64,000 nucleotides of DNA from Escherichia phage vB_EcoM_G17. The position numbers and the translations under genes are program-made. The notes beneath the pieces are model-generated. The model saw only the letters and a list, made by a program, of their open reading frames with translations, did no database searches and was not told the origin of the DNA. This document shows positions 1 through 41,207 of this stretch, piece by piece. The stretch lies in the sequence record MK327931.1. One strand, 5' to 3'. Every line of letters begins with the position of its first letter. Position 1 is the first letter of the stretch.

Positions 1-601
1 TACTAAGACATTGAATTTCAAAATGTTTTGCACCTTTGTCAAAATACTTGAATGCATCAATATCACCGACAATAAAACTATTCTTTAATGTAGTGAATAG
101 GTTCTCAGGAAACACGGTAATAGGTGACATTGATTTAAGAATGTATGTATCTTTGGCATTCTTAATGTACTCAATGAAGCAGTAGTTAACGTCAGGCTCG
201 ATTGAACGATCCGCGTTATGATACCAGTGTTTAAACTCACTGTACTCAGCAAACTTATGCTGGCGTAATGCGTTACAATCTTCACACAATGCAGTCATGT
301 TCTCTTTATCATTACCGCCCTGAAGACAGTCCAGTATGTTATGGTCTAACGTCATGCGTACAAGACGTTTCCCTTTAAGTACATAAGGTCTGAATTTATA
401 ACGTTCTTTAGTACTGTGCTTATGTAAAGTGAATACCACATTGGATTCACCACAACAATCACATTTAAAGCCATCACGTGACATTACATGAATGAGTTTG
501 CGTGTGTTCGGTCCAAACTCAGATTTAGTAATGTTATCCACAATTTCTGATGGTTGGTAATATTTTGAATTCCGTTGAATCAGTTCATCGATAGTGCTCA
601 T
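1..601 (-). CDS. HNH/HNN-type (homing) endonuclease; 3' end runs past window start
   Basis: Manual translation from ATG at 601 gives CDCCG zinc knuckle then LDHNILDCLQGGNDKENMTALCEDCN (DH..GG..N..LC..CN HNH motif); no stop before position 1. Confidence 0.6.
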   Translation of the reverse strand, partial: MSTIDELIQRNSKYYQPSEIVDNITKSEFGPNTRKLIHVMSRDGFKCDCCGESNVVFTLHKHSTKERYKFRPYVLKGKRLVRMTLDHNILDCLQGGNDKENMTALCEDCNALRQHKFAEYSEFKHWYHNADRSIEPDVNYCFIEYIKNAKDTYILKSMSPITVFPENLFTTLKNSFIVGDIDAFKYFDKGAKHFEIQCLS

Positions 602-1038: not shown

Positions 1039-1655
1039 TGGATATTCCTTAATGGTTAATCATCCATCTCTTCGAGATGTCTGTTCGCTTCTAATACTAC
1101 GTATTCTACGCGAATGATTAATAACTGTCAAGGACTTTTAATATTGACGGGATTTGAGGAAGGGATTTTTCTTCCCCCCACAAGGAGGGAAATTTGACGC
1201 TGATGGTATCAGAGCTATTGCATTGAAGATTACTCATAACGAGTGCGAAAGCGGGTCATCCTGTTTCTCTCTACTTCAGTTTCATATGACGGTCTACACT
1301 TTTAAACATAGTGTATCTTCATTAAGTATCTATGCAATCAAATACTTAATGTGAGTACTCAAATTTTGGACGCAACTTTCCTGTACAAAATTCGATAACT
1401 CTCCCTTAGATAATTCGTAAGGTGTTATCCTTATATGTCTATCAAGGAACCACCAGCTATCCTAACGTGGTTCTTTATACAGCCGCATTGCCGTGAGGGG
1501 TTCAAACTATGCCCACATCTAACGGGTTTCTTTTGCTGTTCGCACTGTCGGACTGCTCAACTGCCCTCTACGTTTTCGAGTGGATCAGGTACATGAATAT
1601 CATGCCAACAGAATTGTACAAGATAATTATATCACAAACTTTTACTTCATCCCAT

Positions 1656-1687
1656 AAAAAAAGGTTGGCATAAGCCAACCTTTTTTC
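1656..1687. terminator. bidirectional rho-independent terminator
   Basis: GGTTGGC-ATAA-GCCAACC hairpin flanked by A7 and T6 runs, immediately 3' of the sigma factor gene. Confidence 0.55.
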
Positions 1688-1688
1688 T

Positions 1689-2654
1689 TTAGAAATCTTC
1701 GTATTCGTACCCTTTTGCAAGTACTAGCTTCTTAAGCTTTTGCATAGCTTCACTGTACTTTCGATGTATTGATGAACGGGATTTAACATATTTTCCATTA
1801 TCATCAACAAAACCATTATCAGCAATCTCACGAAGCGTTTCAGGTTCATATTCACCTAGACCATGAACACGCTGGATAATCTCACGTTCTTTAGTACTCA
1901 ATTCGTTAGTCAGTTCATTGATAGCATAACGTAAAGGTGCACGAATACTATCAACATTGAGGTTAAAATCAGAAGCAGGTGAATGAATAATGTCACCTAG
2001 TGTACCATCGGTAACACCGTCTAATGGTGCATCCAGAGAAGTGTATTCGCTTTGAAATAACAAACAGTTATTAACATGCTGAATCTCAATCCCAGTACCC
2101 TCTGAGATTATTTCAGGAGTTGGGCGAACACCATGTTTACGCATATATTCCTGGCAGAATCTTTTTACTTTGATCTTATGAACACTCATATAACGTGGGA
2201 AGTGTACCATATAGTTAGCGTCAGAACTTTCGTTATAAACTGTCATGTAAATACTAGAAGAAGCATAGGTAATGAACTTCACATTCTTATTAAGATCAAA
2301 GGTTTTTAGTGCTCTCATGAACCCCTCAACACCATATGAAATCTTATCTTCAAATGGGATATAACAAGTACATTTACTTGCTACATCAATAATAAGTCCA
2401 TAATTGTAACGAACTAACAGTTCAGTGTTTTTCTTTACATTGATACCAGCTTGAATATCACGAATTAGATCTTCATTGGAAACATTTGGTGGTCGCTTAA
2501 GTGTAATATTATATTTGAAACTGCTTTGTACTTTACCTTCATTTTCATCTTTATCTTCAACGAAATCTAAGGCTTCTAGTGTGTTGACTTCTTCATTAGC
2601 AAAACATTCATCCAGAACTTCTTCGGCAATTGTATTTAAATCAAGCTTTTTCAC
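1689..2654 (-). CDS. sigma-70 family RNA polymerase sigma factor
   Basis: Region 2-like EDKISYGVEGFMRALKTFDLNKNVKFITYASSSIY and region 4-like EREIIQRVHGLGEYEPETLREIADNGF helix-turn-helix. Confidence 0.8.
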   Translation of the reverse strand: MKKLDLNTIAEEVLDECFANEEVNTLEALDFVEDKDENEGKVQSSFKYNITLKRPPNVSNEDLIRDIQAGINVKKNTELLVRYNYGLIIDVASKCTCYIPFEDKISYGVEGFMRALKTFDLNKNVKFITYASSSIYMTVYNESSDANYMVHFPRYMSVHKIKVKRFCQEYMRKHGVRPTPEIISEGTGIEIQHVNNCLLFQSEYTSLDAPLDGVTDGTLGDIIHSPASDFNLNVDSIRAPLRYAINELTNELSTKEREIIQRVHGLGEYEPETLREIADNGFVDDNGKYVKSRSSIHRKYSEAMQKLKKLVLAKGYEYEDF

Positions 2655-13923: not shown

Positions 13924-14013
<90 letters not shown>

Positions 14014-14025
14014 AGAAGTAAGATA

Positions 14026-14126
<101 letters not shown>

Positions 14127-14178
14127 GCCAAGAGTCGGCATAGGTGCAGCACTACAAAGTTCTTCAAGCTGCTTGGTA

Positions 14179-14210
<32 letters not shown>

Positions 14211-14211
14211 T

Positions 14212-14268
<57 letters not shown>

Positions 14269-14270
14269 TA

Positions 14271-14398
<128 letters not shown>

Positions 14399-14417
14399 GC
14401 ATACTCGAAGTACCTCT

Positions 14418-14455
<38 letters not shown>

Positions 14456-14456
14456 A

Positions 14457-14821
<365 letters not shown>

Positions 14822-14830
14822 TAATACCCG

Positions 14831-15232
14831 CTAGTAGTTTAAGTCTGCGGCGTTGAATACACCAAGTGAAGTCTTACCACGTAGTTTAGGTGAAAGGACA
14901 TACTTTGTCAATTTCTTTTTACCGTACCAGCGATTGAATTCGTCTTCAGTGACATATGGGTTCTGGAAATCGTATTCGCGTTTCTTATGCAGTTCTTTAG
15001 CACGTTCTGCAATCTTGGTTCGTTGGTCTTCTGGAATGTCGAATGTATTGTTACGTTCACACCATTCGTGCTCTAATGCACCCTGAAGAAACTGTTCGGT
15101 TTCTTTGACTAGAGTGATTTTAGTCAAGCCTTTTTCGATGTTCATATAATCATCGACGTATCCATTCCAAATAACAATCTCTGGATTGCCGTCAATTTCT
15201 TGAAGCATTTTGATCAAGTCATTCTTTTTCAT
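14831..15232 (-). CDS. hypothetical protein
   Basis: 133-aa ORF. Confidence 0.5.
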   Translation of the reverse strand: MKKNDLIKMLQEIDGNPEIVIWNGYVDDYMNIEKGLTKITLVKETEQFLQGALEHEWCERNNTFDIPEDQRTKIAERAKELHKKREYDFQNPYVTEDEFNRWYGKKKLTKYVLSPKLRGKTSLGVFNAADLNY

Positions 15233-15240
15233 TTAAATTC

Positions 15241-15498
<258 letters not shown>

Positions 15499-15519
15499 TT
15501 ATACCTCTCATTGTTTATG

Positions 15520-15591
<72 letters not shown>

Positions 15592-15595
15592 TAAT

Positions 15596-16203
<608 letters not shown>

Positions 16204-16254
16204 ATAAACCTCACTATACGTAACTTACACCATATACGTCTGATTGTGGAATTC

Positions 16255-16279
16255 ATTATATCAGTACTGAACTATTTAG

Positions 16280-16283
<4 letters not shown>
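16255..16283 (-). promoter_or_regulatory. sigma-70-type promoter copy B (TTGACT-N17-TATAAT)
   Basis: Consensus -10, near-consensus -35, conserved 17-nt spacer; upstream of gene 15820..16203. Confidence 0.6.
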
Positions 16284-16693
<410 letters not shown>

Positions 16694-16702
16694 CTTTTTT
16701 TT

Positions 16703-16864
<162 letters not shown>

Positions 16865-16868
<4 letters not shown>

Positions 16869-17029
16869 AATCGTACCAGTAGTTCAATTAAGTACATTTC
16901 ATATGCTGGATCGTTGATAAGTTTATCATACAGATGTGGCTCTGAAATGAATTCCCAATGATACTTTAGCCATCTACCGATACCCGAATATCTAAAATTA
17001 ATGTCATTCATCCATTCTTCATGTGTCAT
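16865..17029 (-). CDS. MTHEEWM-family small protein (54 aa)
   Basis: Manual translation MTHEEWMNDINFRYSGIGRWLKYHWEFISEPHLYDKLINDPAYEMYLIELLVRL; tandem with next copy. Confidence 0.5.
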
Positions 17030-17190
17030 AATCGTACCATTATTTCAATAAAGAACCACGGATACACTTCATGATTCATAAGTTTATCGTATTCTGCTGG
17101 GTCTGATATGATTTCCCAATGATACTTTAGCCAACTACCGATACCCGAATATCTAAAATTAATGTCATTCATCCATTCTTCATGCGTCAT
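17026..17190 (-). CDS. MTHEEWM-family small protein (54 aa)
   Basis: Manual translation MTHEEWMNDINFRYSGIGSWLKYHWEIISDPAEYDKLMNHEVYPWFFIEIMVRL; about 75 percent identical to previous copy. Confidence 0.5.
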   Translation of the reverse strand: MTHEEWMNDINFRYSGIGSWLKYHWEIISDPAEYDKLMNHEVYPWFFIEIMVRL

Positions 17191-17213
17191 GGTTTTTAAC
17201 CTTTAATTAAAAT

Positions 17214-17290
17214 TGGCCGAGGTAGAGGGACTTGAACCCCCAACCTAGAGATTAGAATTCTCTTGCACTATCCAATTGTGCTATACCCCG
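17214..17290 (-). tRNA. tRNA-Arg (anticodon UCU)
   Basis: Acceptor CGGGGTA/TACCTCG plus G-CCA, D-arm GCACAATTGGATAGTGC, anticodon stem AGAGA/TCTCT with loop AUUCUAA, T-arm GGGGG-TTCAAGT-CCCTC. Confidence 0.7.
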
Positions 17291-17294
17291 TATT

Positions 17295-17410
<116 letters not shown>

Positions 17411-17443
17411 ATGTTATGTCCCATTATATAATGAATTAATGAT

Positions 17444-17770
17444 TTATGCAAGTGCTTTAGATACACCGACACCAATAATTCCAGTGATATCGATATGGAT
17501 ATTGGCAAGTTGATTACTATCATATGGGTTTGTTTCTGTAATAACCAATGTTGTATCATTGACTAAAACCACAGTACCTTTTACACGATAACCATGTAGT
17601 AGTACTTGAACCTCATCTTCAGGTTTTAATGATTGAATAACTTCAAATAAAGTTGTTTCCATTTTTTGTATTCCTTGTTTAGTTTTGATTATTTGACTTT
17701 CTAAATGCCAGTTCGCATATAAACCAGGGTTTTCTGGTATCCAAAACATATGACCTGAAAAGATTTTCAT
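17444..17770 (-). CDS. hypothetical protein (start uncertain)
   Basis: 108-aa ORF; 5' end overlaps 17679..17879 so an internal Met is the likely start. Confidence 0.4.
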   Translation of the reverse strand: MKIFSGHMFWIPENPGLYANWHLESQIIKTKQGIQKMETTLFEVIQSLKPEDEVQVLLHGYRVKGTVVLVNDTTLVITETNPYDSNQLANIHIDITGIIGVGVSKALA

Positions 17771-17862
17771 CTCTTAATATATCATAATGTACCTGACGAA
17801 TGCCATTCCCAAAGCAGTCATGTTCTTTATGCTGTTTGGACATCCATTCTTCGTGTGTCATT

Positions 17863-17879
<17 letters not shown>
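17679..17879 (-). CDS. MTHEEWM-family small protein
   Basis: Contains MTHEEWMSKQ...WFICELAFRK aligning with other family members. Confidence 0.5.
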
Positions 17880-18198
<319 letters not shown>

Positions 18199-34626: not shown

Positions 34627-34883
34627 ATATTGTTAGCGGCTGCTTTTGCTGCTGCACCAGATACTTTTCTAAGGTCATCATGTTTTTGCCCAGTTAAAAA
34701 CCAAAAGTAAAATGTTTCAACTGAAGGGAACCAACCATATGGTTCAAGTGTGAAGCTATGTGAAGAAAAGTTAGATAGATCTCTACCTAACTTAGTTCTA
34801 GCTTTACTATAAATGTTAATGTGTCGGTATCCATCATCAGTAGGGTCAATAAAGTCAAATGACTCTTCTGGAAACTCAAACAT
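34605..34883 (-). CDS. hypothetical protein
   Basis: 92-aa ORF. Confidence 0.4.
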   Translation of the reverse strand: MFEFPEESFDFIDPTDDGYRHINIYSKARTKLGRDLSNFSSHSFTLEPYGWFPSVETFYFWFLTGQKHDDLRKVSGAAAKAAANNICMIELK

Positions 34884-34885
34884 AA

Positions 34886-35122
34886 TTATTCTTCTTCTCC
34901 TGAAGGAGTTCCACGTAGTTTGTCAAAATCAACCCAAATACCATGCTGATTTTTAAATCTACATTTCTCATAGTACCAGCTATAGTCAGTTTCAACACCT
35001 TGTGATATAGATCTAACACTACAATCATACATATTATATAAATGATCCCTGACAATATACGTATTAATCAGAATAACAAACAATACAATAATACCACAGA
35101 CTTTAGGATGATCCATAATCAA
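34886..35122 (-). CDS. hypothetical small membrane protein
   Basis: 78-aa ORF with N-terminal TM helix. Confidence 0.45.
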   Translation of the reverse strand: MIMDHPKVCGIIVLFVILINTYIVRDHLYNMYDCSVRSISQGVETDYSWYYEKCRFKNQHGIWVDFDKLRGTPSGEEE

Positions 35123-35240
35123 ATCTAGAACGGAACTCGTTTCAGTACTGTCAATTTACTACGACCGATGGCAACAGCTTTCAGTACTGCTAATGATACC
35201 AGTAATGAAATAACAAGAACACTCAAATAAATTAGCATAA

Positions 35241-35821
35241 TTAGACTCCTACACCAAAACGTAAAAGGATGTTATTAACAAACACAAAATCAAATGGAGA
35301 CTTTGGTTCAGATACCGAGTACTGAAAAGTTTCAGCGGAGAAACTTTCCCTATTGTGCCATGTTGATGAATCGATTAGTAATTGTTTATCACCAATTGAC
35401 GTTGAATGTAATGGAAAGTGTGCTGATGAATTTATGGAATACGCATTTAGTTTTCCTTGTTCATCTAATGTGATACTAAGATAATATTTTTTCTCAATAT
35501 CAGGAATAAGTTCTTTTGTATACGAATAGATTGAATCAACCCATTCATCATGTACATTTTCTGCACCAATCAGGTGTCCGAATGATAAATTACGTTTAAC
35601 TGGCTTTGATCCTGGTCGAGTTAGAATGAATTGTTTTGTTAAGTAAAAATTATTATGTTTACTTCAATATTAACATTTTTAAAATTCACAACTTTATCAT
35701 ATACATTTCGAAAAACTGTTATATCCCAAGTACTAATTTCATCCATAATACTTATCACCAGTTCTTCTAGTTCTTGGATAAATGGCAAATCATCCTGATG
35801 AAATCTAGTCATGGTTTTCAT
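35241..35821 (-). pseudogene. gene split by a frameshift (60-aa N-terminal ORF plus about 130-codon start-less ORF)
   Basis: Manual translation finds an open frame 35241..about 35650 with no ATG/GTG/TTG start, abutting ORF 35639..35821 in another frame next to an A/T homopolymer run. Confidence 0.4.
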
Positions 35822-36404
35822 ATACCTTTTTCAAATTCATAATTTCTAGAATGCTGTATTCTTTATCACCAATCAAATCTTCAGTGAATGCAGTGGGGTC
35901 GGCATCGCTATACAACTTACCATTGATGATAACACAACCATTACTAAGATACAATGCACTCATGATCTGTTGTCCTTCTTTCACATTTTGTGCTAGACCT
36001 GTATTTGTTACTACAAATCCATTTGTTGCTAATGATGATGTTAGTTCTGACCATTCAACTGATATTAAGTCGCGATAGTCCTTAGATACTTTTATATTCA
36101 CAATACAAGCAACTCGTTTAATAGGTGGAGTGCTAATCGTGTACATTTGTGGTTGTTGGTAATTAGAGTTGTATGTTTGTGGTGTTTTAACAGCAGTTCC
36201 TGAATTTTGAGTTGATTTGGTAATTACTGGTTCTACACTGGGGACTATTGTTCTTAGTGATATAATACGTCCAGTTTCATCCAATTTAAGGACTAAACGA
36301 TGAGTTTCATCCTCAGAGTAATAGGGAAACAAGCCACCGGAATTCATATTTTGAAGCATTTTAATTAATTCATAAGTATTTTTTAAAAACATAGTACACC
36401 CCAT
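35805..36404 (-). CDS. hypothetical protein
   Basis: 199-aa ORF. Confidence 0.5.
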   Translation of the reverse strand: MGCTMFLKNTYELIKMLQNMNSGGLFPYYSEDETHRLVLKLDETGRIISLRTIVPSVEPVITKSTQNSGTAVKTPQTYNSNYQQPQMYTISTPPIKRVACIVNIKVSKDYRDLISVEWSELTSSLATNGFVVTNTGLAQNVKEGQQIMSALYLSNGCVIINGKLYSDADPTAFTEDLIGDKEYSILEIMNLKKVYENHD

Positions 36405-36430
36405 AGAAAAGGGGAGTACAAAGTACTCCC
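36399..36430 (-). terminator. putative rho-independent terminator
   Basis: Minus strand GGGAGTAC-TTT-GTACTCCC hairpin followed by a T-rich tract. Confidence 0.4.
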
Positions 36431-36439
36431 AACATTTAA

Positions 36440-36994
36440 TTATAGTTTAATTGATTCTTGAATACCAGTATCCATTGCTTTCTTGGTACGTGTATCAGAT
36501 ACTACTGTACAAAGGTGTTCAATATTTTCACTTGGAAACGTATTCGAATCAAGAATTTTGGAATTCCAGAAGCCTTTGCGGAACTTAGCATAATCAGTAC
36601 ACTGGTCAATTTTCATTTTCTGAAGATTGTTGAACTTTGTACGTCCTGCTTCAATTGTCACCATCAATTCCTGATAAATTTTAGGATCAAGATTTGGAAC
36701 CTGTTGTTGAATCTGTGACATTACAAACTTCTGGTCAACACCTTCACGCCCTTTAAAGTATGACTCAATCGTTTCTTTCAACGCATTTTTGTACTTATCT
36801 GCTACTTGAACCTTATCTTGAATAGTAAGAGTATAATTGCTAAGTTGACTTTCAGATGCATCATAGTACTTTTTAATGTTTCCTTCAAACTCAACTGCAC
36901 GATCATGTGCACCAACATACATACTAATAGAACCAAACACCATTAGTACAATAACTACCAAAATACCAATTAACGCAAGGAGTTTACCATTCAT
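36440..36994 (-). CDS. hypothetical membrane-anchored protein
   Basis: 184-aa ORF with N-terminal TM helix LLALIGILVVIVLMVFGSI. Confidence 0.5.
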   Translation of the reverse strand: MNGKLLALIGILVVIVLMVFGSISMYVGAHDRAVEFEGNIKKYYDASESQLSNYTLTIQDKVQVADKYKNALKETIESYFKGREGVDQKFVMSQIQQQVPNLDPKIYQELMVTIEAGRTKFNNLQKMKIDQCTDYAKFRKGFWNSKILDSNTFPSENIEHLCTVVSDTRTKKAMDTGIQESIKL

Positions 36995-38085
36995 AAATCG
37001 TTATCCCTCATATAAAGGCCAATGAAAATAGACAGAATCAACAAAACAATGGAAGCACCGATAAGAACATCTTTTCTAGGTTCCATTTTTACTGACAAGT
37101 ACTCAAACTCTTTATTAGAGAGTCTCTCAAACTGTGTGTCAATATTATGTACTTCTTTAACTAGTAAGTCAAGAGTTAATTTTTCATTTAATGCATCAAT
37201 ACGCATCTTTGCATGTAACTCTTCATTCTTCATTCCTTGTGCAAATGATGTACTGTAAAATTTGACAACGTTACCATCATTGTCAATACCAAAGAACATA
37301 ATAACATCATTCTTCTTACCACCACGCCACGATGCAAGGGTAGCATCAACAAAATCCACATCTTTGTAATCATAAACTAGTACTTGGATGTTTACCTGCT
37401 TTCGTGCACCCATCGTTTTTAGCTCATTACGAAGGTATTCATCGTAACCATCAACGTTGTAATTTGTAGTGTTAATTACGTGATGTGTTTTGTAATAATC
37501 AACTACACTTGGGTATTCTGGAATAGTACTAAGATACTTTTCATCATACATGTTGTGTAGTTCTTCAGGACTAAACAATGAGTTCTTATCAGCAAATAGA
37601 TAGTTGATATATGAACTCTCTGCGGCGGCATAGTCACCAATCATAACTTGCTGCCAACGTGGTGGTGTCATTGTACCTTGACGGTTCACACGTTCAATCT
37701 CAAACTCACCTACTGTACTTTTCACATACCAATCAACTTCATATGAGTAATCAAAAACCTTATATGATTCACACTCACGATGTGATTTACCTTTACTATC
37801 ATATCGCGTATGGCACTTCTCATGCCATGTATAGTGCTTACATGAACTAGATTGTGTGCAATATTCTTTGTGGCTGTATTTTGAAGTTACTTGACCATTC
37901 AGAATCTCAACATCATAAAGCTGGCTATAGTTGATTGCGTATGAAATACCAAGAACAAGAGCCGCACCAACCAGACAACAAGCAATATGAATCAATAGTT
38001 CTTTAGTACTGATATGCTTATCGTACATGTATTTCATAACGAATACAACGATAAGAGCAGGTATTAACAGAATAATGAAATTCAT
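36991..38085 (-). CDS. hypothetical membrane protein (N- and C-terminal TM helices, Cys/His-rich central region)
   Basis: 364-aa ORF. Confidence 0.55.
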   Translation of the reverse strand: MNFIILLIPALIVVFVMKYMYDKHISTKELLIHIACCLVGAALVLGISYAINYSQLYDVEILNGQVTSKYSHKEYCTQSSSCKHYTWHEKCHTRYDSKGKSHRECESYKVFDYSYEVDWYVKSTVGEFEIERVNRQGTMTPPRWQQVMIGDYAAAESSYINYLFADKNSLFSPEELHNMYDEKYLSTIPEYPSVVDYYKTHHVINTTNYNVDGYDEYLRNELKTMGARKQVNIQVLVYDYKDVDFVDATLASWRGGKKNDVIMFFGIDNDGNVVKFYSTSFAQGMKNEELHAKMRIDALNEKLTLDLLVKEVHNIDTQFERLSNKEFEYLSVKMEPRKDVLIGASIVLLILSIFIGLYMRDNDL

Positions 38086-38088
38086 GTA

Positions 38089-38778
38089 TTAATCCATTTT
38101 AAGCTTGTTTAGACAGAATGAAATCTGGATTGCTTCACGTGCTGCATCAAACAGTGGGTGATGTAACTCCAACCCATTAATCCCACACGTATTTGCATAT
38201 GTGATAAATTTATCCAACTGTACCGAAACGATTTCATCCATTTCAATACGAGCTTCTTCATTCAATAAACGTTTCAATGTGCGTGCATTTTCAGGTGCAT
38301 CATACTTCCACAACTCACCAGCGTTCATTAGTTTTAAATGGTTTGCTTGTAAAATACTACAATCGAAGTTACATCCGTTGCCCCAGACTGAATGAGGAAC
38401 TTCTTCACCATAATCATTGTAACGTAATTCTTTCCAGAAATCAACAATACTACTGTATGCAAAAAATCGTCGTGATTGACCATTCGGTCCATACAGTTCA
38501 GGTGCTTTGAGTTTCATAGTACTGGCAACTTCAGAATATGCATTAGAGTATTCTTTCTGACATGTATTCATCCAAAAATCCATTGCACCTGCGTCTGATT
38601 TTAAACCAGCAGCAACTTGATCCTGGTATGGTAATTTAATATATAAGAACTGACGAATGTCATTTTCAGGTTTACTTGGAACTACTACTGCTGCGTAATT
38701 TGGGATAATAATATCATAACCGGAAAGTTCAGGTGTTCCAAGAGCTTCAATATCAACACTAATATGACGACGTTTCAT
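38089..38778 (-). CDS. dexA: DEDDh-family 3'-5' exonuclease (DexA-like)
   Basis: Exo I motif ISVDIEALG, C-terminal HHPLFDA (Exo III H-x4-D); about 229 aa, close to T4 DexA size and near a dda-like gene. Confidence 0.6.
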   Translation of the reverse strand: MKRRHISVDIEALGTPELSGYDIIIPNYAAVVVPSKPENDIRQFLYIKLPYQDQVAAGLKSDAGAMDFWMNTCQKEYSNAYSEVASTMKLKAPELYGPNGQSRRFFAYSSIVDFWKELRYNDYGEEVPHSVWGNGCNFDCSILQANHLKLMNAGELWKYDAPENARTLKRLLNEEARIEMDEIVSVQLDKFITYANTCGINGLELHHPLFDAAREAIQISFCLNKLKMD

Positions 38779-38857
38779 AAGTTAGTTCCTTATCTGTACA
38801 TTAAAAAGAGTGCGTTTTCAATAAGATTATATTAAAAACGCACTCATATGTCAACTA

Positions 38858-39994
38858 TTACTTGTTAGCTTTTTCGGCAATTTCACGAAGAGTGTCTTCC
38901 AGTTCATAGGAAAGTTGTGCAATTTCCTGTTTAGCACGTTCACGTTCCAATTTGCCTTTTTTCTCTTCTTCAATAACTGCTTCAATACTGTCAATCATCG
39001 TTTTATGTACATTACGCAAGGTTTTAATATCCACAATACCACGGTTGTTTGCCTTTGCTGCGTCCAACATATTTGCTGCAACCATTTTAGAGTTAGTTTC
39101 CAAAAGACGGTTTGTCTCATTATCAATTAGATTGCCTAGTTCATTATCCTTACGTTGACGCTCGGAAATTAACTGTTCAGCCAATTGAGACTTCCATGCT
39201 GGAATAACAACAGATTTTAAATCTTCAAACTTAGAAACAGTGTTCAAGTTTACTTTTTTCATACTCATCAAACGTGGACCACTTAGCTCGCACATCATGA
39301 TAAGACGACGAATCTTATCTTCTTGTTTAGAAAGTGCTTCACAAATCATCTTTTGCTCTTGAATAGCAAAAGAGTCTACATTTTTGTCTGCTTGCATTTC
39401 TAATAATAATGCATCTTGTGTTTTAGTTACTTCTTCTAAACCAACTAATGTATCACGTAATTCAAACAAATATTCTTTGTTTTCATTATATGCTTTATCA
39501 AGCCATTCACATTCTCCGTGCTGGCGATTAATACCAGTTTGAAGAGTTTTCATAATTTCGTCAATTTGCTCTTTACTGTTTTTGTACTGATCACCTACTT
39601 TCTGTTGAGCATTAACAAAGAATTTCTTAATACGACCAACAATTGATTTATCTTCTTGAAGACTGTCAATATCAACTGCACGAGTCAACGTAAGAATTGT
39701 GGTGATTGATTTACCAAACTCGGTATTGTCATCCGTTACATTAACTTTAGACATAATTTCATCAGCCAAACGCCCAACAGCAGCACCAGCAGTTGTACCA
39801 ACAGTATTGATGTTTTGAACTGTTAGAGACATAGTATTTCCCTTAACATCTTTCAGTACTGGTAGTGATTTTGTAGTTTGGTTAAAAATATCACTTGCAT
39901 CAATTGTATGACCTTTAGACGCAGTTTTAGTAGTGCGTTTTGCTGATTTAGCTGCGGTGGATGCTTTTTTAGGATTGATTTCTTTCTCGGACAT
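38858..39994 (-). CDS. hypothetical coiled-coil protein
   Basis: 378-aa ORF with basic N-terminus and long helical, charged body. Confidence 0.5.
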   Translation of the reverse strand: MSEKEINPKKASTAAKSAKRTTKTASKGHTIDASDIFNQTTKSLPVLKDVKGNTMSLTVQNINTVGTTAGAAVGRLADEIMSKVNVTDDNTEFGKSITTILTLTRAVDIDSLQEDKSIVGRIKKFFVNAQQKVGDQYKNSKEQIDEIMKTLQTGINRQHGECEWLDKAYNENKEYLFELRDTLVGLEEVTKTQDALLLEMQADKNVDSFAIQEQKMICEALSKQEDKIRRLIMMCELSGPRLMSMKKVNLNTVSKFEDLKSVVIPAWKSQLAEQLISERQRKDNELGNLIDNETNRLLETNSKMVAANMLDAAKANNRGIVDIKTLRNVHKTMIDSIEAVIEEEKKGKLERERAKQEIAQLSYELEDTLREIAEKANK

Positions 39995-40067
39995 TTAGTA
40001 TTCCTCGTTTAATTTAATATGATGTGCTGCTCTGTGATAAACATTATACGGGCAGCACGTATGATAG

Positions 40068-41207
40068 TCAAGTATTTTTTAACTCTTTGTTACCATATGC
40101 CAGATTACGAATAATTTCTACAGTACTCTCATCCACAGCTTTACCTGTCTGTGATTGTAAACGATTGATAATCAAAGGAATAGTAATAGTTTGAAGATCT
40201 ACCATACGATTCATATCAACTTGATATTGCTTACTTGTTGCAATAATGCTCGTTTCAGTCATGGAGGTGGTGATTCCCATTTTCATAATACGTTCTAATG
40301 TTAATTCATATTCAAACGCATCATCCACACAACGTAGTGCGTATTCACAACCCAACTTACCATATTCAAGTTCATTTTTGATTTCATTAACTTCGTTTCT
40401 AAGTTCTGAAAACATCGTACTAAGACCACTAAACTTATTAGTGTCATACTTAACTGCTTCATTTAGTGCTTTCATCACTTTTGGCAAATCTGATGGTTGC
40501 ACTTTGATATCAGTTTTACCAAACAATTTCTGTGTAAAGGTCGGCTTCAATGGGAACAACGTCTCCAACGCAACAGTAAGGTTATTCATAAGCATTCTAA
40601 TATAATCACTATGCTGTTGTAATGCTGAGTTAAGATCCAATTGACGTTCTGAAATTTGTTGAATCTTAGTTCCAATTTCTTGTGCACAAACTGGTAAGTT
40701 TACAAACCAGTCTAGTACTTTTACTGAATTCTTTTCAATAGTACTAGGGAATTCAACCCATCTTTCAATGTCATCAATTCTGCTATCGTCTGGGTTGATA
40801 GGTTTTTTCTTAAGAACAATAGGTGCAGGTACATCTGGTGATGTTTGTACCAAGTCTAAACGTGGTTTGGCACGACCTTCTTTCCATTCACGATATTCAC
40901 GCTCTAATGGCGGTACTGGCATGTTAGGATCAATTCTAATATTACTAAAATGAATTTTATCCTTCATTAAATCAAGAACTTTCAGACGTTTATTATCAAA
41001 ATAGATTTCATCTAATGACAGAGTTTTTACATCAAATAACGGATTACCCAGCGAGTCATAGGTGCGACGTACAATTACATTGTAAATGTATTTTTTGTTT
41101 GATGAACGGTCATATTGTTTCAATAAAGAGTTCAGTACATAATTATAGTTAAATTCTTGAATCTCAACTTCTTTGCCATTTTCAATGAAAAAATATTTAC
41201 CTTTCAT
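40068..41207 (-). CDS. hypothetical protein
   Basis: 379-aa ORF. Confidence 0.55.
   Translation of the reverse strand: MKGKYFFIENGKEVEIQEFNYNYVLNSLLKQYDRSSNKKYIYNVIVRRTYDSLGNPLFDVKTLSLDEIYFDNKRLKVLDLMKDKIHFSNIRIDPNMPVPPLEREYREWKEGRAKPRLDLVQTSPDVPAPIVLKKKPINPDDSRIDDIERWVEFPSTIEKNSVKVLDWFVNLPVCAQEIGTKIQQISERQLDLNSALQQHSDYIRMLMNNLTVALETLFPLKPTFTQKLFGKTDIKVQPSDLPKVMKALNEAVKYDTNKFSGLSTMFSELRNEVNEIKNELEYGKLGCEYALRCVDDAFEYELTLERIMKMGITTSMTETSIIATSKQYQVDMNRMVDLQTITIPLIINRLQSQTGKAVDESTVEIIRNLAYGNKELKNT

What the first reader, a model, noticed from the sequence alone, without database searches (positions are those of the whole stretch)
1040..1657. ORF-free, relatively GC-rich 600-bp region between the HNH endonuclease and the sigma factor gene
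This stretch has no convincing ORF on either strand and looks more GC-rich than the surrounding coding DNA by eye (e.g. GCCGCATTGCCGTGAGGGGTTCAAACTATGCCCAC). It lies upstream of an HNH endonuclease gene. It could encode a structured non-coding RNA or be a remnant of mobile DNA acquired with the endonuclease.
Basis: seen in the sequence. Interest (0 to 1): 0.4.

Follow-up and report, generated by a model that had tools for sequence, protein, structure and literature searches.

The report
New large structured RNA gene family
The ORF-free, GC-richer gap holds a gene for a roughly 475-nt, heavily pseudoknotted non-coding RNA that is present in 3-5 diverged copies in every RaK2-like jumbo phage examined, matches no Rfam family, and was not found in the literature I searched.

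Summary
Window 1040-1657 has no conserved ORF and is 39% GC against 33% for the window. Only the tRNA cluster is as GC-rich.

The window is Escherichia phage Sharanji (Asteriusvirus, 350 kb). The gap contains an independent transcription unit on the minus strand:
- the sigma gene's terminator (1686-1657);
- a conserved TGGGAT-N17-TGnTATAAT promoter (1654-1626), the same type as the one before the tRNA cluster;
- a ~475-nt RNA (about 1619-1146).

In 33 distinct homologues, 85 base pairs in 17 helices, including three pseudoknots, are 96% paired, and 62 pairs show compensatory changes. G·U outnumbers A·C 151:21, which fixes the strand. Variability shows no codon periodicity.

Sharanji carries four diverged paralogues in unrelated gene contexts. 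Homologues occur in RaK2-like jumbo phages and related metagenomic contigs. Rfam 15, ARAGORN and literature searches give no match.

My reading is a new class of large "ornate" phage RNA that acts in trans. Its biochemical role is not established. It is not a remnant of mobile DNA brought in with the HNH gene.

The parts
1657..1686 (.). Bidirectional intrinsic terminator ending the sigma-factor gene (A7-GGTTGGC-ATAA-GCCAACC-T6).
   Evidence: Read directly from the sequence. In cmscan, terminator-bearing sRNA models align only here. UE-S1's depositors annotate a terminator at the same place. The simple terminator scan did not list it.
1626..1654 (-). Promoter of the RNA: -35-like TGGGAT (1654-1649), 17-nt spacer ending in TG (1634-1633), -10 TATAAT (1631-1626). 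This is an extended -10 promoter.
   Evidence: TGnTATAAT is invariant or nearly invariant in 33 homologues. A TGAAAC/TGGGAC box lies 17 nt upstream in the wider alignment. The same promoter type sits directly upstream of the tRNA cluster at 17423-17395. That it functions as a promoter is inferred.
1146..1619 (-). The RNA gene (paralogue A): about 475 nt from the inferred start (~1619) to the end of the last conserved motif (CCCGUCAA, 1146). The true 3' end is unknown.
   Evidence: nhmmer profile match 1643-1128 on the minus strand, E = 1e-128. Alignment A1. Covariation statistics. G·U asymmetry 151:21.
1542..1611 (-). 5' domain. PK1: the 5' strand 1611-1607 pairs with the loop 1548-1545 of hairpin P3 (1556-1554/1544-1542). 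P2 hairpin: 1588-1578/1568-1561.
   Evidence: Helices 1, 3, 4 and 5. In PK1 all 5 pairs show changes on both sides. P3's middle pair occurs as U-A 14, A-U 12 and C-G 7.
1418..1539 (-). P4 (1539-1535/1483-1479) encloses P5 (1525-1522/1494-1491) and the invariant ACGGCAAUGCGGC block. Then P6 (1473-1468/1452-1447), the invariant GAUAGACAUAUAAGG, and P7 (1433-1429/1422-1418).
   Evidence: Helices 6-9. In P6 all 6 pairs are compensatory. P7 is only weakly supported (80% paired). Invariant columns are listed.
1320..1401 (-). P8 (1401-1399/1355-1353) closes the central module (AUUUUGUACAGGAAAGUUGCGUCCAAAAUUUG). The long hairpin P9 follows (1351-1340/1331-1320).
   Evidence: Helices 10 and 11; 9 of P9's 10 pairs are compensatory. 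Module variants are shown.
1217..1338 (-). PK2: the P9 loop 1338-1332 (AUUGCAU) pairs with 1223-1217 (AUGCAAU). This is a 7-bp long-range or kissing interaction whose sequence differs between paralogues.
   Evidence: Helix 12: 99.1% paired, 6 of 7 pairs compensatory. First detected without prior assumption.
1224..1290 (-). 3' domain. The H-type pseudoknot PK3 (1290-1286/1259-1255) interlocks with P10 (1278-1274/1228-1224), P11 (1271-1267/1251-1247) and P12 (1244-1242/1234-1232). It contains the invariant GACCGU and ACCCGC.
   Evidence: Helices 13-16, 99-100% paired. Sharanji A carries a double compensatory change in PK3 (GUCAU/AUGAC where others have GUUGY/RCAAC).
1146..1192 (-). Invariant 3' module: the G6 hairpin P13 (1186-1183/1178-1174 plus an outer stem) followed by ...CUCAAAUCCCGUCAA.
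   Evidence: Helix 17, where the only variation is C-G to U-G, so it is read on this strand. The module occurs only with the four RNA copies in about 304 kb of Sharanji. The window has a single G6 run on the minus strand and none on the plus strand.
1103..1131 (-). Separate sigma-70-type promoter (TTGACA-17-TAGAAT, 11 of 12 matches) for the downstream genes gp181-gp179. It lies outside the conserved element.
   Evidence: Promoter scan. Conservation in distant homologues stops at about 1140.
1689..2654 (-). Upstream neighbour: the phage sigma-70-family factor (gp182). It is not part of the element.
   Evidence: Pfam Sigma70 regions 2, 3 and 4; region 3 passes the curated cut-off, regions 2 and 4 are marginally below it. 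Annotated as a sigma factor in the record.

Best explanation
Window 1146-1619 (minus strand) is a stand-alone gene for a large, highly structured non-coding RNA. It is paralogue A of four in phage Sharanji.

Shown:
- The sigma gene ends at its own terminator.
- A conserved extended -10 promoter follows, of the same type as the tRNA-cluster promoter.
- The sequence downstream is conserved as a set of at least 17 helices, including three pseudoknots, separated by invariant unpaired blocks.
- The helices change by compensatory substitutions.
- The G·U bias shows that selection acts on the minus-strand transcript.
- The family is dispersed in 3-5 diverged copies per genome, in unrelated gene contexts, across the RaK2-like jumbo phages examined.

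Inferred:
- The host RNA polymerase transcribes it as a stable RNA that acts in trans, not as a leader of the neighbouring genes.
- The compact fold presents its invariant single-stranded motifs (ACGGCAAUGCGGC, GAUAGACAUAUAAGG, and the repeated CCGU/CGUC(A/C)AA sites) as a binding or catalytic surface.
- The paralogue-specific 7-bp loop-to-strand pairing (PK2) either locks the fold or joins copies of the same RNA into oligomers. The latter is the way the phage-associated ornate RNAs GOLLD and ROOL assemble.

The most likely working mode is therefore a scaffold or assembly RNA (RNP or RNA-only complex) used during infection. Its biochemical activity is not established.
For: Identity and spread:
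- The window is phage Sharanji.
- The core is about 70% identical in distant genera while lying in unannotated gaps, with 3-5 places per genome.
- Sharanji has four copies, in four unrelated contexts; no neighbouring proteins are shared.
- Further members come from IMG/VR, metagenome contigs and one genome-collection contig. In that divergent contig, the RNA is the only stretch alignable to RaK2-like phages at the DNA level.

Structure:
- RNAalifold predicts 57 pairs, 35 of them compensatory.
- For the curated structure of 85 pairs, 96.3% of cells are paired, against 77.4% in shuffles and 36-45% when the partners are slid.
- 62 pairs and 456 cells change on both sides, against 127 cells in shuffles and 45-71 when slid; 0 of 500 shuffles reach the observed values.

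Strand: 151 G·U/U·G cells against 21 A·C/C·A cells.

Promoter: TGnTATAAT is invariant or nearly so, and the same promoter type precedes the tRNA cluster.

Not coding: no conserved open frame and no 3-nt periodicity in variability.

Canonical terminators follow the core in about 10 of 33 members.

GC content matches only the tRNA cluster.
Against: - There is no transcript evidence for any member. No transcriptome of these phages was found.
- The single-sequence folding energy is unremarkable (z = -1.45; the opposite strand gives -1.33).
- The 3' end of the window copy is undefined because no terminator is present. In other members the invariant 3' module lies after a terminator, which a simple 'one stable RNA' picture does not explain.
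- The alignment was built and the helices chosen on the same data, so some pair counts are optimistic. P7 and P8 are weak.
- The trans-acting scaffold or assembly function is inferred by analogy only. No partner protein, ligand or catalytic activity is indicated by any result.
Confidence: 0.7

Rival explanations
1. Pre-primer RNA of a replication origin, as in ColE1 RNA II or T4 oriF/oriG. Each of the four dispersed, co-oriented units would be transcribed from its strong promoter. The folded RNA and its G6 hairpin would promote a persistent RNA-DNA hybrid near the 3' module, which would prime leading-strand synthesis.
For: - Four copies are spread around the 350-kb genome (about 81, 192, 270 and 327 kb), all on the same strand, including copy C, which is antisense to its neighbours.
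- The size (about 500 nt) and the promoter-driven, folded transcript resemble ColE1 RNA II (my own knowledge).
- The invariant G6 run is almost unique in the genome.
- The invariant 3' module lies beyond a terminator in many members, as if the RNA-to-DNA transition region mattered.
Against: - About 85 invariant, mostly unpaired nucleotides and three covarying pseudoknots across genera and paralogues are far more constraint than known primer RNAs show.
- No AT-rich unwinding element or iteron array was noted next to the copies.
- Co-orientation of four units is expected fairly often by chance, because most genes are on that strand.
- None of the replication genes annotated in the Sharanji record (helicase, polymerases) lies next to any copy, and no such gene is annotated next to the GAP32 or 7t3 copies either.
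Confidence: 0.1
2. A catalytic RNA: a new large ribozyme, or a very divergent, ORF-less relative of group I or RNase P-type RNAs that the Rfam models miss.
For: - Multiple pseudoknots surround invariant junction nucleotides, and the size falls in the ribozyme range.
- There is a local resemblance of ACAGNNCAACCCGCUU to the RNase P ACAGAACCCGGCUUA region. This comparison is from my memory and was not tested.
- The phage carries many tRNA genes and RNA-repair genes.
Against: - There is no hit to Intron_gpI, group II, RNase P, tmRNA or any other of the 4227 Rfam families, even at E <= 10 with relaxed filters.
- The element does not interrupt a gene. Its flanks have their own stop codon, terminator and promoter.
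- Four diverged paralogues are unusual for a housekeeping ribozyme.
Confidence: 0.1
3. A cis-acting leader or riboswitch-like attenuator that controls the genes downstream (gp181-gp179, including the HNH protein).
For: It lies upstream of and co-directional with gp181-gp179. Some members have a terminator after the structured domain.
Against: - The downstream genes differ for every paralogue and between genera.
- Copy C is antisense to its neighbours.
- In the window, a separate near-consensus promoter lies between the element and gp181.
- At about 450 nt with three pseudoknots, it is far larger than known riboswitch aptamers.
Confidence: 0.03
4. A DNA-level element (recombination, packaging or protein-binding sites), or decayed coding or mobile DNA carried in with the HNH gene.
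For: The repeated CGTCA motifs, and the AUCnnCGUCAAR repeat flanking the terminator and G6 hairpin, could be protein-binding sites on DNA. An HNH-like gene lies about 450 bp away.
Against: - The compensatory changes preserve pairing. The 151:21 G·U to A·C asymmetry is not expected for duplex DNA sites.
- There is no frame conservation or codon periodicity.
- The element is retained where the HNH flank is not alignable and in three HNH-free contexts.
- It is more conserved than the neighbouring genes (99.2-99.7% against 97-99.5% among close relatives).
Confidence: 0.03

Closest known systems
GOLLD and ROOL RNAs (large 'ornate' RNAs, often in phages or prophages; Rfam families; cryo-EM nanocages in PMC12286853)
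   Same: All are several hundred nucleotides long, with many helices and pseudoknots and highly conserved junctions. They are encoded by phages as independent genes, and their function is unknown. The covarying loop-to-strand pairing found here (PK2) could be intermolecular, which is how those RNAs oligomerise.
   Different: There is no sequence or structure match to either Rfam model. This family is restricted to RaK2-like jumbo phages of Gram-negative hosts, comes in 3-5 diverged paralogues per genome, and is not adjacent to tRNA genes. Oligomerisation is untested.
OLE RNA
   Same: A large (~600 nt), intricately folded non-coding RNA with extensive invariant positions, thought to work as an RNP.
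   Different: OLE is a single-copy bacterial gene in extremophilic Firmicutes, next to the genes of its protein partners. Here no conserved neighbouring protein exists and there is no Rfam match.
ColE1 RNA II and T4 origin transcripts (primer RNAs)
   Same: A promoter-driven, folded transcript of about 500 nt. A G-run is important in RNA II. Multiple dispersed loci would suit a large phage genome.
   Different: This family has much deeper sequence and tertiary-structure conservation. No origin features have been shown and no experimental link to replication exists.
phi29 pRNA
   Same: A phage-encoded structural RNA whose covarying loop-loop complementarity turned out to be intermolecular and to drive ring formation.
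   Different: pRNA is about 120-174 nt, single-copy, and lies next to the genome end. There is no similarity in sequence or fold, and a role in packaging is untested here.
HEARO / IscB omega RNA (HNH endonuclease-associated RNA)
   Same: A large structured RNA found near an HNH-type nuclease gene.
   Different: There is no Rfam HEARO match. gp179 is 262 aa, matches HNH only weakly and gave no RuvC match. It is separated from the RNA by two genes and a promoter. Three paralogues are not next to gp179, and none of their immediate neighbours is annotated as a nuclease in the Sharanji record.
lncRNAs of the related jumbo phage PA5oct (PMC7318152)
   Same: Four ORF-free regions of 236-619 nt in a distant relative of the RaK2 group are shown by RNA-seq to be transcribed, two of them very highly.
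   Different: nhmmer finds no similarity between this family and PA5oct ncRNA002 or ncRNA004. ncRNA001 and ncRNA003 were not tested.

Membership tests
Group I intron | Match to the conserved P3-P8 core (Rfam RF00028) | tested here: not met
   No hit at the gathering score or at E <= 10 with relaxed filters, in the window copy or in 9 homologous loci.
Group I intron | Interrupts a host gene whose exons join into one reading frame | tested here: not met
   The upstream gene ends with a stop codon and a terminator. The element has its own promoter, and the downstream gene has its own promoter and start codon.
tmRNA | tRNA-like domain plus a tag-peptide reading frame | tested here: not met
   ARAGORN finds only 7 tRNAs elsewhere in the window. 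There is no Rfam tmRNA hit.
RNase P RNA | Match to the bacterial or archaeal RNase P covariance models (P4 core, CR-I to CR-V) | tested here: not met
   No RNase P family appears among the hits at E <= 10. The local ACAG..ACCCGCUU resemblance is from my memory only.
GOLLD / ROOL / OLE ornate RNAs | Match to the family covariance model | tested here: not met
   None of these families appears in the cmscan output.
GOLLD / ROOL / OLE ornate RNAs | Homo-oligomeric RNA-only assembly | not testable with these tools
   PK2 covaries. Whether it forms within one molecule or between molecules cannot be decided from sequence.
HEARO / IscB omega RNA | Adjacent IscB-type protein (RuvC plus HNH, about 400-500 aa) and an RNA matching RF02033 | tested here: not met
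   gp179 is 262 aa with sub-threshold HNH hits only and no RuvC match. It is not adjacent to the RNA. There is no Rfam hit.
Riboswitch / cis-regulatory leader | Constant association with, and location in the 5' UTR of, a functionally related downstream gene | tested here: not met
   The downstream genes are unrelated among paralogues and genera. An intervening promoter lies at 1131-1103.
Structured non-coding RNA gene (generic) | Conserved secondary structure supported by compensatory substitutions beyond controls | tested here: met
   96.3% of cells are paired. 62 of 85 pairs and 456 cells change on both sides. 0 of 500 shuffles reach this, and the slid controls give 36-45% paired.
Structured non-coding RNA gene (generic) | Own promoter and strand-specific selection | tested here: met
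   TGnTATAAT is invariant or nearly so in 33 members. G·U to A·C is 151:21. Promoter activity itself was not tested.
Structured non-coding RNA gene (generic) | A detectable discrete transcript | not testable with these tools
   No transcriptome of an Asteriusvirus or other carrier was found.
ColE1 RNA II-type primer / origin | Replication initiates at the 3' end of the transcript (R-loop, RNase H processing) | not testable with these tools
   The only evidence is circumstantial: dispersed co-oriented copies and the G6 run.

The most novel reading that the evidence does not exclude
The RaK2-like jumbo phages carry a previously unrecognised class of large RNA machine. A set of 3-5 paralogous ~0.5-kb RNAs would each fold through three pseudoknots and assemble, through their paralogue-specific kissing sequence, into RNA-only or RNP complexes, or act as a new ribozyme, with an essential role in the infection cycle of these phages.
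Probability: 0.3. Interest if true: 0.9.

Novelty: categorically new. Interest (0 to 1): 0.78.

Why it matters
Large, intricately folded bacterial and phage RNAs are rare. Only about a dozen classes are known (OLE, GOLLD, ROOL, raiA, HEARO and a few others). Each has opened new biology, including omega RNAs as nuclease guides and RNA nanocages.

This family has four features that make it worth pursuing:
- It has very strong comparative support.
- It has an unusual genomic pattern: several ancient paralogues per genome, conserved across the genera of a jumbo-phage clade that includes phage-therapy candidates such as 121Q, PBECO4 and RaK2.
- It is directly testable in an E. coli K-12 host.
- In at least one comparison between distant members of the clade, it is the only DNA that still aligns, which suggests a core function.

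There is also a practical consequence. Current annotations either leave these loci empty or fill them with spurious small ORFs (for example 7t3, Kaldavass and Hallingskeid).

Tried and rejected
- Rfam at gathering score on the whole window, and at E <= 10 on the region and on 9 homologous loci, gave only tRNAs elsewhere and terminator-like noise.
- ARAGORN found no tmRNA or tRNA in the gap.
- A search for a second copy inside the 64-kb window, with blastn and an nhmmer profile, found none. The other three copies lie elsewhere in the genome.
- The first 50 kb of the genome and 38 kb around the GAP32 copy hold no nearby paralogue.
- Single-sequence folding is not informative; z is about -1.4 on both strands.
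- Coding or pseudogene reading: rejected.
- A shared neighbouring protein as candidate partner: none found.
- Homology to the PA5oct RNA-seq-defined lncRNAs 002 and 004: none by nhmmer.
- Six literature searches plus a term search within the Sharanji paper found no description of this RNA.
- The RNAalifold long-range pairs that tie the 3' module to the core (GAC/GUC and GGGA/UCNC) do not covary, so I did not adopt them.
- The central-module stem has alternative registers and I could not settle it.
- I did not build a covariance model.

Full report
**What is there.** The window is 100% identical to Escherichia phage Sharanji (OR545507.1, Asteriusvirus, 350 kb). Window position 1 is record position 79778. 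Genes in this part run on the minus strand:
- the sigma-70-family factor gp182 at 1689-2654, supported by Pfam region 3 above the curated cut-off and regions 2 and 4 just below it;
- the gap;
- gp181 (829-1038) and gp180 (602-832);
- gp179, called 'HNH endonuclease' in related records but matching Pfam HNH only below the cut-off.

The gap has only short, unconserved ORFs. It is 39.3% GC against 32.9% for the window (z = 2.5). The only equally GC-rich stretches in the 64 kb are over the tRNA cluster.

**Conservation.** blastn with the gap alone shows that window ~1140-1590 is 99.2-99.7% identical in close relatives. That is slightly higher than the flanking genes, which are 97-99.5% identical. 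The same stretch is still about 70% identical in other genera: GAP32, CBB, Serratia BF, Yersinia fHe-Yen9, Erwinia SNUABM phages, Salmonella Munch and 7t3, and Xanthomonas XbC2. In almost all of them it lies in unannotated DNA, with 3-5 matching places per genome.

The gene context differs between groups:
- In GAP32 the element lies between gp504 and gp503, about 5 kb from the sigma gene.
- In 7t3 it lies between baseplate and endonuclease VII genes, on the opposite strand to them.

Relatives whose alignment to the window starts only at about 860 (H21/H22) keep the element at 99.2% identity (H48/H49). It is therefore not tied to the HNH-like gene.

**A multi-copy family.** An nhmmer profile finds exactly one copy in the window (1643-1128, minus strand). 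It finds three more in the rest of the Sharanji genome:
- record ~191,717-192,264 (between baseplate genes and gp365, antisense to them);
- record ~270,438-271,035 (between gp442 and gp443);
- record ~326,504-327,062 (between gp544 and gp543).

All four are on the record's minus strand. Two stretches of the record, 50,001-76,777 and 346,987-350,079, were not scanned. The paralogues are only about 60-70% identical to one another, and their neighbouring proteins are unrelated. Two different copies on the same contig were also seen for GAP32, Yen9-04 and an IMG/VR contig.

Further members came from IMG/VR, from metagenome contigs including a 349-kb soil contig, and from one contig in the bacterial-genome collection. 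In that last contig, the RNA is the only part alignable to RaK2-like phages at the DNA level. With divergent queries, 70 phage records match. All are RaK2-like jumbo phages, including RaK2, K64-1 and Muenster.

**It is an RNA, on the minus strand.** I aligned 33 distinct members in the putative RNA sense (A1). The alignment shows invariant blocks separated by variable hairpins. The main blocks are UGnUAUAAU, GAAACCCGU, ACGGCAAUGCGGC, GAUAGACAUAUAAGG, UAAGGGAG, GACCGU, ACCCGCUU, CGUCA, GGGGGGAUG and AAAUCnCGUCA.

RNAalifold predicts 57 pairs, 35 of them with compensatory changes. An unbiased scan for stacked, covarying column pairs added long-range helices.

The curated structure has 85 pairs in 17 helices, including three pseudoknots. 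Its statistics are:

| Measure | Observed | Column shuffles | 3' partners slid 1-3 columns |
|---|---|---|---|
| Cells paired | 96.3% | 77.4% | 36-45% |
| Cells changed on both sides | 456 | 127 | 45-71 |

62 of the 85 pairs show changes on both sides, and 0 of 500 shuffles reach any observed measure.

The three pseudoknots are:
- **PK1:** the 5' strand pairs with the loop of hairpin P3.
- **PK2:** the 7-nt loop of the long hairpin P9 pairs with a strand about 110 nt downstream (99% paired, 6 of 7 pairs compensatory). Its sequence differs between paralogues. In Sharanji, A has AUUGCAU/AUGCAAU, C has AUUGUAU/AUACAAU, D has AUCGAAU/AUUCGAU and B has UCAUAU/AUAUGA.
- **PK3:** an H-type knot interlocked with P10 and P11. 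Sharanji A carries a double compensatory change (GUCAU/AUGAC where others have GUUGY/RCAAC).

Within the pairs there are 151 G·U/U·G cells but only 21 A·C/C·A cells, so selection acts on the minus-strand transcript. Variability shows no codon periodicity, and open frames are short and not conserved in position or strand. Single-sequence folding energy is not informative.

**Transcription signals.** Directly after the sigma gene's terminator (1686-1657) lies the promoter:
- TGGGAT (1654-1649);
- a 17-nt spacer ending in TG;
- TATAAT (1631-1626).

The TGnTATAAT element is invariant or nearly so in all members. A TGAAAC/TGGGAC box sits 17 nt upstream in most. The same promoter type lies directly upstream of the tRNA cluster at 17423-17395.

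The inferred start is about 1619, and the last conserved motif ends at 1146. About ten members, including Sharanji C and D, carry a canonical hairpin-plus-U-run terminator after the core motif ...AUCAnCGUCAR. The window copy has none, so its 3' end is unknown. A separate near-consensus sigma-70 promoter at 1131-1103 serves gp181. This argues that the element is not that gene's leader.

**Unexplained features.**
- The invariant 3' module (a 10-bp hairpin with a G6 run, then CAAC-AAAUCnCGUCAR) lies after the inserted terminator where one exists. Its hairpin nevertheless varies only by C-G to U-G, which is RNA-type variation on this strand. The module occurs nowhere else in about 304 kb of the genome, and G6 runs are almost absent elsewhere.
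- A ~30-nt module (UUUGUACAAUAUAGAUCCGUCCAAAAUUUG) sits in the centre of most members. In others it lies inside the P12 loop, or in both places.
- Copy-B members have a terminator-like hairpin right after the -10 box.

**Comparison with known families.** Rfam 15 (4227 families) gives no match at the gathering score, and none at E <= 10 with relaxed filters, for the window copy or for nine homologous loci representing other paralogues and genera. ARAGORN finds no tmRNA. The defining features of group I introns, tmRNA, RNase P RNA, HEARO/omega RNA, riboswitch leaders and the ornate RNAs GOLLD, ROOL and OLE were each tested and not met as memberships (see the membership table).

The literature searches and the Sharanji genome paper do not mention the element. 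The related phage PA5oct has four RNA-seq-defined lncRNAs (PMC7318152). The two I compared (ncRNA002 and ncRNA004) are not homologous by nhmmer.

**Interpretation.** Four results are established:
- an independent, promoter-equipped locus on the minus strand;
- a conserved, pseudoknotted RNA fold;
- an ancient multi-copy family;
- restriction to RaK2-like jumbo phages.

The rest is inference: a stable, trans-acting RNA whose invariant single-stranded blocks form a binding or catalytic surface, and whose PK2 either locks the fold or mediates paralogue-specific self-association, as in GOLLD, ROOL and phi29 pRNA.

The rivals are:
- a ColE1-RNA-II-like origin primer, which has some circumstantial appeal from the four dispersed, co-oriented copies and the G-run;
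- a new ribozyme;
- a cis-acting leader;
- a DNA-level or decayed coding or mobile element.

The last two are largely excluded by the data.

**Verdict.** The element is a well-supported member of a previously undescribed family of large structured phage RNAs. Its function remains to be determined experimentally.

Noticed in passing
window 13934-18176 (minus strand): A cluster of 7 tRNA genes (Thr, Asn, Met, Ser, Arg, Ser, Gly). Three are unusually long (87-92 nt), among them a tRNA-Ser with anticodon ACT and a 90-nt 'tRNA-Met'. A promoter of the same TGGGAC-N17-TGnTATAAT type as the RNA's lies at 17423-17395.
   Followed up: partly
window 1103-1131 (minus strand) and 1065-1079: A near-consensus sigma-70 promoter (TTGACA-17-TAGAAT) sits immediately after the conserved element. 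A small hairpin (CATCTCGAAGAGATG) lies just upstream of the gp181 ribosome-binding site.
   Followed up: partly
L003 (Sharanji record) 34817-40487, outside the window: Several unusually long unannotated gaps (34817-36711, 36902-38423, 39094-39669, 39878-40487) precede a run of seven or eight similar ~1.15-kb plus-strand genes (gp106-gp113). They contain no copy of this RNA.
   Followed up: no
L210 19935-19975 (Sharanji copy B) and equivalent positions in GAP32_B, Yen904_B, L173, TH47: A terminator-like hairpin plus a U7 run lies directly after the -10 box of the copy-B promoter. The RNA's own transcript would therefore begin with, or be attenuated by, this hairpin.
   Followed up: no
L011 (7t3), L014 (Kaldavass), L015 (Hallingskeid), L004 17480-17593 (GAP32_503A): Depositors have annotated strings of 30-55-aa 'hypothetical proteins' across the RNA element. 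The covariation and the lack of frame conservation suggest these are spurious gene calls.
   Followed up: partly
window 1-601 / L002 2813-3601 (gp179): The protein called 'HNH endonuclease' in related records reaches only 17 bits against Pfam HNH and HNH_5, below the curated cut-offs, so the name is weakly founded.
   Followed up: partly
L453 6365-7064: One divergent member was found in a contig of the bacterial/archaeal genome collection. Its record title was not retrieved. Apart from three short unannotated phage records that match its left part, only the RNA element aligns to known phages (the RaK2-like group). The contig is probably a phage contig binned into a MAG.
   Followed up: partly
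L001 2972-3129 (UE-S1 record): UE-S1's depositors annotated a 'repeat_region' inside the element. This probably reflects the paralogous copies, but no interpretation is given in the record.
   Followed up: no
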